DNA from: Vitrella brassicaformis CCMP3155 | Taxonomy: Eukaryota; Protista; Chromerida | Assembly (NCBI GenBank): GCA_001179505.1 | Contig: CDMY01000372.1 | Span: 1-64,000, forward strand | Length of the DNA stretch: 64,000 nt | Direction: 5' to 3' | Shown here: positions 22,873 to 24,852 of the stretch, in pieces | Layout: each line of letters begins with the position of its first letter | Numbering within the stretch: position 1 is the first letter of the stretch | Position numbers and translations under genes: made by a program | Notes under the pieces: generated by a model | Told to the model about the DNA's origin: nothing | Databases searched by the model: none | What the model saw: the letters and a program-made list of their open reading frames with translations, nothing else

Positions 22873-24852
22873 TCAGCAGCAGCAATGCATAGTAGCCTCC
22901 GACAACATTATCCAGCGGAGCGGATCTCGCGTCTTGAACGCCTGGACGACTTGCTTGACGGAAAGCTCGAAGGCGAACTCGTCAAAACTCTTCCGGGCCT
23001 TGTTTCTCTTGTTGTCCTGTTCCTTGTCTCTTGACCCCCAGCCTGTAGGCCTGATCTCCGCCGCCCGAGGGATAACCCACACGATCACCCACCGCTTGAC
23101 CTTCTCCAGCGCCTTGCTGGCTTTCATCTCCTGGTCGATCAGCTCCTCGGTGAACGTGGCCGTACCGTGCCCCTTGTCGATCGTGGCTTGGAACAGATAG
23201 GCCGTCGTCCCAGACACGTAGAGTGAGTCGACGGCCTTCTGCCTGCCCACCTTTGGCTGCCAGAGTCCATCTTTGTCGATGTCTGAGTAATCCTCGAACT
23301 CGTAGCGCTCCGCCGACCCAAGTGATAGATACTCGGATGCTGGTTGTTGTTCTATGCGGCTCCTGGCGTAACGAGTGCGGTTGTCCTTCACGCGTTGTTG
23401 CTGGCTCTCCAGGCTCTCGAGGGGGATGTCGCTCTTCGCATCTCTCAGAAAGCGACTCACTATCGCCTCAAACATGCGGCCTCTCTGAGAGCCCTCAGCA
23501 GTATGGGCGGCCTCAGCAGTATGGGCGGCCTCGATGATCCAGTTCATGAATAGTCCCAGTTGCCGCTCGTTCAGCTCCTTCACGAACATGGCCAGCGGGC
23601 CAGGCGCGCGCCAGACGACATTCGAAAAGGCGTAGCCGTAGTCTCCCTCGGTTGTGACATTGATGCTCATTAGCACAGCCTGGGGCATTTCGTCGGGATC
23701 GACGCCTGACAGGCGCCAAAAAAAGTGCCATGTGTACCTGGCCAATTCACTCAGGCTCTTCACAGCCCTTACCTGACAGCCAAGTCTTCATCGAGTCGAA
23801 GTCCACTATTCTGGCACTACTCTCAGCACGTCGCCGGAGTTTCGACACTGGGGTGTAAAACTCGCGGATGTTACTGCCCGCGAACAAACGGCACTCCTCG
23901 ATCTCGTCATCAGTCCACTTGGGCTCCATTACGTGCTTGAACAGCCGGTCGATCTCGTCGTCAGGCCAGAGCGGAAAAACGAGATCCTCCACGATGTACT
24001 TCTTGAAGCCGCTGTAATCGTCTGGTGTGCGGGAACATGCGGCCAAGACTGCCGGGCCGCTCCAGAAGCGATAGCCCTCCCGTCCGTCTGTTGGGACAGA
24101 AAGAAAGAGCATGCACAGACAGTCGATACAGGAGGCGTGGATCTCACCGATTAGTAGCCAGTTGCGACGATTGGCGCCCACGTCACCGATTCCATCGCCC
24201 TCGCCTGATGGGCTCCCCAACGTATCCTCCAGACGCGACTTGTCCACCATTTTAAAGACGCCGCCTCGCATGAGCTCGTAGACATCCTTGTCAGGAGCTC
24301 CTCCCCGCCGTGAGTTGTCAACATACCAGATAACAAACTCCTCTTCCTCCATACGTCCCGCGAGCACGGCCATCAGGAAGTAGAGGAAGAAACTCTTGCC
24401 CACGCCAGACGAACCACGCATCAGCATATGAGGGAGAGATGTGTCAGGGGTCGTCTTGGCGGCGCTCAACATGATCTCGGCCAGCTCGATGTACGCTTTG
24501 CGGACCATGACTTGTGTGCCGCCAATGAGGTCGATCGTGTCGTACGGCTGGACTTTGTCGAGATGAAGGGGAGTCAGATGTTCCCAAAACGTCTTGAAAT
24601 CAGCAGGCTTCTCCAGCCCCATCGGCGGCGGTATCCGCTTCTGAGTGACAGCATGGTGGATGAACGAGTGCTGCACACGCATGCACGCACCTCTTGCTTG
24701 GCATCGCCGGCCTGAGCACATAGCCGGCTCGGAGGAGAGCCATCCAGGTGAGCTCCAGGCGGAGCGATGAAAGCCACAGGGAAGGGCAGGCGCCTGCCGT
24801 CGACGAATGCAGCGGAGATGAGGCACACGGCAAAGAGAGAGGACGCACTCAT
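22873..24852 (-). CDS. Crinkler/RHS-type P-loop NTPase + restriction-endonuclease-like protein with signal peptide and transit-like leader
   Basis: Leader MSASSLFAVCLISAAFVDG-RRLPFPVAFIAPP, spliced in frame (QE|KRIPPP). Walker A GSSGVGKS, Walker B WLLI|DG. REase-like RGRMFEAIV...QKAVDSL...YLFQATI. Four exons with canonical GT-AG junctions. Confidence 0.78.

What the first reader, a model, noticed from the sequence alone, without database searches (positions are those of the whole stretch)
22873..24852. Crinkler-type NTPase-nuclease with a secretory/plastid-like leader instead of a CRN header
Seen: a P-loop NTPase followed by an E...D...QxT nuclease-like core. The N-terminal exon encodes a signal peptide and a VAFIAPP-led transit-like stretch. 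Known: NTPase+REase is the core architecture of Crinkler/RHS (CR) effectors, which are linked to transposons and toxins and usually have ubiquitin-like or helical headers. Inference: a nuclease effector routed into the secretory pathway or plastid of a probably photosynthetic alveolate. Possible roles are organelle DNA restriction, defence, a selfish element or a secreted toxin.
Basis: partly seen in the sequence, partly recalled or inferred. Interest (0 to 1): 0.78.

Follow-up and report, generated by a model that had tools for sequence, protein, structure and literature searches.

The report
Plastid-addressed Crinkler-type nuclease family
This intact, spliced gene, likely from the photosynthetic alga Vitrella, joins an ATP-binding domain to a predicted DNA-cutting domain of the likely Crinkler/RHS effector type, but it carries a leader predicted to send it into the alga's own chloroplast rather than into a host cell, and four of its relatives carry a similar leader.

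Summary
The gene has four coding exons and gives 600 aa. A transcript contig splices the leader exon to the NTPase exon; three DNA runs keep the introns. Walker A and B are intact. The C-terminal model (pLDDT 65) puts E403, D483 and Q496-x-T498 on a restriction-endonuclease-type core. Its fold matches are consistently such nucleases but individually weak (Z below 6). ESM Atlas places both halves beside oomycete and trypanosome RHS clusters (0.96-0.97). There is no Crinkler ubiquitin-like header. The leader scores 1.7-2.6 on the published Vitrella plastid matrix, a level reached by 1 of 23 scored non-plastid references. All named relatives are Vitrella proteins of about 30% identity, and 4 of 5 full-length ones carry a signal plus an arginine-rich transit-like leader. 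A second, unrelated P-loop gene with nuclease-like motifs and a textbook plastid-type leader lies at 46954-49322. Most likely this is a nucleus-encoded, plastid-imported ATP-gated nuclease. Localisation and activity are untested, and formal CR-family membership could not be tested. I found no published precedent, but the defining paper was unavailable.

The parts
24987..25112 (-). 5'UTR exon (furthest 5' end seen in a transcript contig)
   Evidence: contigs of X6 (to 25112) and X7 (to 25070)
24881..24986 (-). 5'UTR intron, 106 nt, GT-AG
   Evidence: skipped in X1, X6, X7; present in DNA runs
24691..24852 (-). Coding exon 1 (aa 1-54): signal-like hydrophobic stretch (about aa 6-17), linker, F-I-A-P motif (aa 28-31), Pro-rich transit-like stretch
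   Evidence: aligns without gaps over 33 aa to a paralog leader
24641..24690 (-). Intron 1, 50 nt, between leader and NTPase exons; spliced in one run, retained in another
   Evidence: X7 skips, X6 retains
24148..24640 (-). Coding exon 2: N-half of the P-loop NTPase, Walker A at 24415-24392
24088..24147 (-). Intron 2, 60 nt, in frame, splits Walker B
   Evidence: skipped in X6, X7; shows as a 20-aa insertion in the alignment
23773..24087 (-). Coding exon 3: C-half of the NTPase and following helical region
23706..23772 (-). Intron 3, 67 nt
   Evidence: skipped in X1, X6, X7
22873..23705 (-). Coding exon 4: helical linker and REase-type domain (E403 at 23469, D483 at 23229, Q496 at 23190, T498 at 23184, H503 at 23169); stop at 22875-22873
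25146..25268 (+). Context: first exon of a RAD50-like SMC-family ATPase gene, head-to-head, 294 nt between start codons
   Evidence: Pfam AAA_23 E 2.6e-11; the RAD50 name is recalled; transcript contigs begin at 25111-25130
46954..49322 (+). Context: second, unrelated gene (predicted 647 aa, five GT-AG introns) with signal and transit-like leader, P-loop motifs and nuclease-like motifs
   Evidence: no RNA or homolog test was possible

Best explanation
The gene encodes a 600-aa P-loop NTPase joined to a predicted restriction-endonuclease-fold domain, likely of Crinkler/RHS (CR) ancestry, that is likely imported into the plastid by its bipartite leader and would there act as an ATP-gated nuclease on plastid nucleic acid, most likely DNA. 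Shown: gene structure, splicing, motifs, and a small fast-diverging family with similar leaders. Inferred: ER entry by the signal part, plastid import by the transit part, removal of about 46 residues, and control of the REase by the NTPase as proposed for CR proteins (review PMC5289972). Inferred origin: a mobile or conflict-type CR gene gained a plastid leader once and then duplicated. Some copies lost the Walker A lysine and would be ATPase-dead.
For: Splicing. REase-type topology and fold hits. ESM Atlas neighbours are oomycete, diatom, fungal and RHS clusters for both halves separately. Vitrella-matrix transit score 2.14 (cut after aa 15), 1.66 (after 19) or 2.58 (after 27). In the published reference set 72 of 195 plastid proteins reach 2.1, and 1 of 23 non-plastid proteins with a non-zero score reaches 1.66 (counted by eye). 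4 of 5 full-length named relatives have a signal plus a 38-39-aa stretch with 6-7 K/R and 0-1 D/E followed by an acidic run, and one is backed by an MMETSP transcript ORF. The window leader aligns with theirs (11 of 33 identical, block-shuffle p 0.009-0.056 over 4 related paralogs). Plastid-type reference proteins in the same supplement also show a Phe motif displaced behind a linker. ATP and DNA are present in the stroma but not outside the cell (general knowledge).
Against: No localisation or activity data. No SignalP run was possible, so the cleavage site is assumed. The matrix was trained on the plastid set and its negative set is poor in secreted proteins, as the authors note. This protein's own transit stretch is only weakly basic (3 K/R, 2 D/E over aa 16-46). 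Shuffling the leader behind aa 11 reaches the same scores in 4% of trials. No fold hit is significant alone (Foldseek best E 0.055; VIA Z at most 5.8), and both Atlas queries had recognition values under 2300. Strand 3 has Q-x-T, not E-x-K, and is K-x-T or R-x-T in 3 of 7 relatives. One RNA run retains intron 1, which truncates the leader frame at 92 aa. The organism is inferred from homologs.
Confidence: 0.45

Rival explanations
1. The protein goes to the plastid but is domesticated as a gene-expression or RNA-processing factor that binds rather than cuts DNA, as trypanosome RHS proteins act in transcription and REase-fold RAP proteins act on organellar RNA.
For: RHS2, RHS4 and RHS6 are essential transcription-associated factors (PMC8311971 passages). 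RAP proteins have a REase-like fold, are organelle-targeted and number 31 in Vitrella (PMC8190603 passages). 3 of 6 full-length members lack the Walker A lysine and strand-3 residues vary. The locus is stable, spliced and transcribed in three studies.
Against: The helix-1 E and strand-2 D are invariant in 8 of 8 sequences at about 30% identity. The window copy keeps all motifs. No helical-repeat RNA-binding region is seen.
Confidence: 0.2
2. The leader is a plain signal peptide plus linker, and the protein is secreted or kept in the ER or periplastid space as a toxin against competitors, prey or a coral host.
For: The CR architecture is linked to toxins (PMC5289972). Rhizophagus CRNs have predicted signal peptides (PMC6131194). 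This protein's transit stretch is weakly charged, and diatom periplastid proteins tolerate acidic residues (PMC12136025). The family diverges fast and is lineage-restricted.
Against: Transit scores lie above nearly all non-plastid references at every plausible cut. Paralog leaders are arginine-rich and nearly acid-free. No uptake or header domain lies between leader and NTPase.
Confidence: 0.2
3. The leader is non-functional or bypassed (a decayed CRN header, or intron retention with a downstream Met), and the working protein is cytosolic or nuclear like other CR and RHS proteins.
For: CRN 'signal peptides' were reinterpreted as strand 1 of a ubiquitin-like fold. X6 retains intron 1, which opens a 573-aa leaderless ORF from a later ATG. 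A Met lies at aa 61, and a basic patch at aa 556-562. One full-length relative (CEM21095.1) has no signal in its model.
Against: No LxLFLAK or HVLVxxP motif and no Pfam Crinkler hit in the window protein or 7 relatives. The leader is 54 aa and Pro/Gly-rich, too short for a ubiquitin fold. The first ATG has A at -3 and no upstream ATG. A similar leader is kept in paralogs at about 30% mature identity.
Confidence: 0.15

Closest known systems
CR (Crinkler/RHS-type) effectors with NTPase + HTH + REase C-termini (Zhang et al. 2016, known here only through review PMC5289972 and PMC11342252)
   Same: P-loop NTPase, helical linker, then a REase-type domain in that order; occurrence in a free-living eukaryote; small lineage-specific expansion; Atlas neighbours in oomycetes.
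   Different: No ubiquitin-like or helical header. A bipartite signal plus transit-like leader stands in its place. No assignment to a numbered CR-NTPase or CR-REase clade was possible.
Trypanosomatid retrotransposon hot spot (RHS) proteins (Pfam PF07999, PF20445)
   Same: Atlas score 0.96 for both halves with clusters that carry RHSP (64% of members for the NTPase hit, 14% for the REase hit).
   Different: No Pfam RHSP hit. RHS proteins are nuclear or cytoplasmic, have 118 members and a retrotransposon insertion site; this family has about 7 members and an organelle-type leader.
Tribolium Medea1 and Wolbachia CifB-related CR-NTPase8 + CR-REase7 elements (PMC11342252)
   Same: NTPase+REase design used in inheritance conflicts.
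   Different: Their active site is E...D...ExK with His three residues after the Glu; here it is Q-x-T with His seven residues after the Gln. No mobile-element ends.
RAP-domain proteins of apicomplexans and chromerids (PMC8190603)
   Same: Nucleus-encoded, organelle-targeted, REase-like fold, expanded in chromerids.
   Different: RAP is a short domain behind helical repeats with no NTPase; no Pfam RAP hit here.

Membership tests
CR (Crinkler/RHS-type) proteins | P-loop NTPase N-terminal to a REase domain | tested here: met
   Walker A and B, then a REase-type model
CR (Crinkler/RHS-type) proteins | Profile match to a defined CR-NTPase or CR-REase clade | not testable with these tools
   Zhang 2016 and its profiles are not held. 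Pfam gives nothing. Atlas similarity 0.96-0.97 is a lead only
CRN effectors (strict sense) | Ubiquitin-like header with LxLFLAK and HVLVxxP | tested here: not met
   No motif in the three window pieces or 7 relatives; no Pfam Crinkler hit; 54-aa leader
CRN effectors (strict sense) | Delivery into a host cell nucleus | not testable with these tools
   No experiment possible
Trypanosomatid RHS | Pfam RHSP or RHS_N domains | tested here: not met
   No hit at E 0.5-1 for 9 alignment members or 4 window pieces
PD-(D/E)xK (REase-fold) nucleases | alpha-beta-beta-beta-alpha-beta core fold | tested here: met
   Model order H69-88, E146-148, E160-164, E167-173, H186-193, E204-212. 12 of the 13 wide-search rows aligning over 100 residues are REase-fold chains, Z 4.0-5.4, rmsd 3.8-6.2. 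Weak scores; fold labels of the hits are from my own knowledge
PD-(D/E)xK (REase-fold) nucleases | Catalytic E...D...(D/E/Q)xK set | tested here: inconclusive
   E and D are invariant; strand 3 has Q-x-T with a later His instead of Lys; the spatial arrangement could not be inspected
PD-(D/E)xK (REase-fold) nucleases | Metal-dependent nuclease activity | not testable with these tools
   Needs an assay
Chromerid plastid proteins with bipartite leader | N-terminal signal peptide | tested here: inconclusive
   Hydrophobic core KD10 2.66 and small residues at -3/-1 for cuts 15, 19 and 27; SignalP not available
Chromerid plastid proteins with bipartite leader | ASAFind+ Vitrella transit score of 1 or more | tested here: met
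   1.18-2.58 at all cuts 13-29, best 2.14 and 2.58; the threshold is lax, as 64% of mature-protein windows pass it
Autonomous transposon or selfish mobile element | Terminal repeats or target-site duplication around the gene | tested here: not met
   No convincing flanking direct or inverted repeat in 21500-26000; no second copy in the window

The most novel reading that the evidence does not exclude
The chromerid nucleus has retargeted at least two unrelated CR-type NTPase-nuclease lineages to its plastid, forming a nucleus-encoded nuclease arsenal that polices the plastid genome: destroying foreign or paternal plastid DNA, or acting as Medea-like selfish factors at the organelle level, with ATPase-dead paralogs as regulators or antidotes.
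Probability: 0.2. Interest if true: 0.85.

Novelty: new variant of a known kind. Interest (0 to 1): 0.62.

Why it matters
CR/RHS proteins are known as host-nucleus toxins, selfish elements or nuclear factors. A family addressed to the organism's own plastid would give this architecture a new destination. It would supply concrete candidates for plastid DNA turnover, inheritance control or transcript processing in the closest photosynthetic relatives of apicomplexans, where such enzymes are largely unidentified (my own knowledge). It also shows header replacement by an organelle-targeting exon, and it is directly testable with a reporter and one catalytic mutant.

Tried and rejected
Word-index homolog searches with exon 4 (longer proteins) and with the NTPase part found nothing; the full HMMER scan found 4 hits, of which P0004, a 1106-aa repeat protein, was dropped as spurious. 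The window's own protein was not returned; I cannot tell whether it is unannotated or withheld. Pfam, NCBIfam and PADLOC gave no hit at significance; PDB sequence searches gave none. A single-sequence model of exon 4 was unusable (pLDDT 38). The NTPase half was never folded. No relatives were found in metagenome, viral or prokaryote contigs, plasmids or phages; these look for close relatives only. BFVD gave only weak hits (best E 0.003; Mrr-like and restriction proteins of giant viruses). No CR or RHS structure appeared in the fold lists, which excludes nothing. No run was on record as RNA; X1, X6 and X7 are read as transcript runs because they skip GT-AG introns. X2 and X8 covered only parts without joints. 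The tree of 8 C-terminal rows has the window protein on a long branch, so its place is unsure. Literature searches with no hit: Crinkler+chromerid (79), retrotransposon hot spot+Crinkler+plastid (73), Crinkler+diatom+plastid-targeted (92), Crinkler+bipartite+transit peptide+alga (109), Vitrella+RHS+restriction endonuclease+plastid (110); none of the 5 papers mentions Vitrella. For the second gene, Pfam, PADLOC, PDB, viral and plasmid searches and comparison with this family were all blank. No complex prediction was run. No whole genome is held, so no census was possible.

Full report
Gene structure. The finding is a minus-strand gene with four coding exons (24852-24691, 24640-24148, 24087-23773, 23705-22873) and a 5'UTR intron. 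The spliced ORF is 600 aa; the UTR has an in-frame stop and no ATG. Contigs of public runs confirm the model. One contig of X7 skips all four GT-AG introns, so the leader exon is joined to the NTPase exon. X6, from another study, skips three and retains the 50-nt leader intron. X1 shows two joints. Three DNA runs carry the stretch unbroken; they may be the window's source, so they serve only as the unspliced control. With intron 1 retained, the first ATG gives 92 aa and a later ATG opens a 573-aa leaderless frame. Contigs cannot give the ratio of the two forms. The gene is head-to-head with an SMC-family ATPase gene (RAD50-like by recall) and tail-to-tail with an arylsulfotransferase-like gene. 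No terminal repeats flank it.

Family. HMMER over 1.84 billion representatives gave 4 hits for exon 4, one of them a spurious repeat protein. A profile search gave 5. Every named relative is a Vitrella brassicaformis protein: CEM38962.1, CEM01720.1, CEM01668.1, CEM38985.1, CEM21095.1 and the truncated CEM38637.1; one partial ENA protein is unnamed. Identity to the window protein is 26-38% over both halves. I infer that the window is from Vitrella or a close chromerid; no genome was held to confirm it. The Walker A lysine is kept in 3 of 6 full-length members (window, CEM01720.1, CEM21095.1) and is Leu in the other 3.

Domains. Walker A is at 130-137 and Walker B at 215-220. The exon-4 model from an 8-sequence alignment (pLDDT 65, pTM 0.71) puts E403 on a long helix, D483 at the start of a strand and Q496-x-T498 on the next strand, the order of the PD-(D/E)xK core. 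Foldseek found nothing at E 0.001, but its first 22 listed rows are all REase-fold nucleases (HindIII, Nt.BspD6I, Can2, XPF, SfsA, McrC). Realignment of those hits gave Z 4.0-5.8 for 21 such rows (not independent). The search that does not lean on Foldseek listed 50 rows: 37 short, mostly helical matches (including rank 1) and 13 alignments over 100 residues, 12 of them REase-fold. The tool warns that Z under 8 may mean only a common arrangement, so the fold call rests on consistency plus motif placement. Fold labels of the hits are my own knowledge. ESM Atlas, asked separately for each half, returned oomycete, diatom and fungal hypothetical clusters and RHS clusters at 0.96-0.97, with recognition values (2105, 2049) below the tool's 2300 mark. 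Pfam, NCBIfam and PADLOC are silent. So it works like a CR NTPase-REase; membership of a defined clade is untested.

Leader. There is no CRN header motif in the window protein or 7 relatives. I applied the Vitrella-specific ASAFind matrix of Fussy et al. 2019 (supplement); a hand calculation reproduced their 2.635 for Vbra_19598. Without SignalP the cut is unknown: the 20-aa transit score is 2.14 after aa 15, 1.66 after aa 19 and 2.58 after aa 27. In their table 72 of 195 plastid references reach 2.1, and of 23 non-plastid references with a non-zero score only 1 reaches 1.66 (counted by eye; 326 other non-plastid references score 0). The matrix was trained on those plastid proteins and few secreted negatives were included. 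A shuffle of the leader behind aa 11 reached both scores in 4% of 5000 trials. Four paralogs have a signal stretch, an F-containing motif and a 38-39-aa stretch with 6-7 basic and 0-1 acidic residues, then an acidic run; their matrix scores are lower, 1.4-2.0 at the best cuts. One is supported by a transcript ORF. The window leader aligns to them without gaps, with the same G-8-residue-F-x-A-P spacing in two, which suggests one ancestral leader; the block-shuffle p-values (0.009-0.056) are modest and not independent. The window's own stretch is less basic (3 K/R, 2 D/E). CEM21095.1 has no signal in its model; its start resembles the end of the paralog leaders, so an exon may be missing, which I could not check.

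A second gene. The control scan for leaders ranked ATG 46954 first in the window (5.68 / 2.64). It begins a predicted six-exon, 647-aa frame with five GT-AG introns, a 31-aa transit-like stretch with 9 K/R and no D/E, RGGKT and LLIDE P-loop motifs, and W-E...FPKYD...GYQC near the end. These last motifs resemble another CR NTPase-REase type by my recall only. It has no detectable similarity to the first family, and no RNA, homolog or fold test was left for it. If right, it makes plastid addressing of such proteins a repeated event.

Mechanism. Most likely the protein enters the ER, is imported into the plastid, loses its leader and acts as an ATP-gated nuclease on plastid nucleic acid (0.45). 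Rivals: a domesticated plastid expression factor like RHS or RAP proteins (0.2), a secreted or periplastid effector (0.2), and a bypassed leader with a cytosolic or nuclear product (0.15). All steps after splicing are inferred.

Literature seen. Passages only: PMC5289972, PMC6668581 (supplement parts 1, 11, 21-23, 50, 51 of 51), PMC12136025, PMC11342252, PMC6131194, PMC8311971, PMC6393297 (91, nothing used), PMC11064341, PMC4501334, PMC8190603. Search listing only: PMC12407925 (Chromera transfection). Zhang et al. 2016 was not held; its text and supplements may already list Vitrella CR proteins or their leaders, which bears on novelty. The review notes CR proteins in free-living eukaryotes and one hydrophobic header (Angomonas), so the architecture is known. 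Five searches found no paper on plastid-addressed CR proteins. Two earlier scan notes report CR claims in other genomes that did not hold up; here splicing, invariant residues and the fold were checked directly.

Verdict. A real, expressed gene and a new variant of a known kind. Interest 0.62.

Noticed in passing
window 46954-49322 (+): Second predicted P-loop NTPase gene with nuclease-like C-terminal motifs (647 aa, five GT-AG introns, one only 41 nt) and the best plastid-type leader in the window; unrelated in sequence to the main family; its CR likeness is recalled, not shown.
   Followed up: partly
window 24852-25146: Head-to-head arrangement with a RAD50-like gene; transcript contigs of the two genes begin 18-41 nt apart, suggesting a very compact bidirectional promoter.
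   Followed up: partly
window 24641-24690: Leader intron retained in one run and spliced in another; retention would allow a leaderless 573-aa product, a possible dual-targeting switch.
   Followed up: partly
window 23486-23521: 18-nt tandem duplication in coding exon 4 (two copies of a hexapeptide just before the catalytic-helix Glu), absent from relatives.
   Followed up: no
P0002, P0009, P0010: Three Vitrella paralogs share a Lys-to-Leu change in Walker A while keeping the REase E and D; two of them are on contigs of the same length (226,887 nt), suggesting local duplication.
   Followed up: partly
window 21131-22272 (+): Arylsulfotransferase-like gene (Pfam PF14269, E 1e-7) converging on the main gene; transcript contigs run through the intergenic stretch.
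   Followed up: no
window 14596-15243 (-): Toprim-domain exon (Pfam E 1e-20), probably a topoisomerase gene.
   Followed up: no
window 54382-54981 (-): FAD-binding monooxygenase-like exon (Pfam FAD_binding_3, E 4e-5).
   Followed up: no
window 56330-57958 (+): Chaperonin (CCT/TCP1-like, by recall) exons with (TG)n/(CA)n-rich introns; one such intron gives a false signal-peptide score at 56667.
   Followed up: partly
window 6671-7867 (-), 17847-18944 (-), 44268-45371 (+), 60832-61842 (+), 62080-63549 (+): Long open frames (337-490 aa) with no Pfam hit at E 0.001.
   Followed up: no
window 38108-38407, 39436-39735, 52306-52605, 57360-57659: Four runs of 300 N.
   Followed up: no
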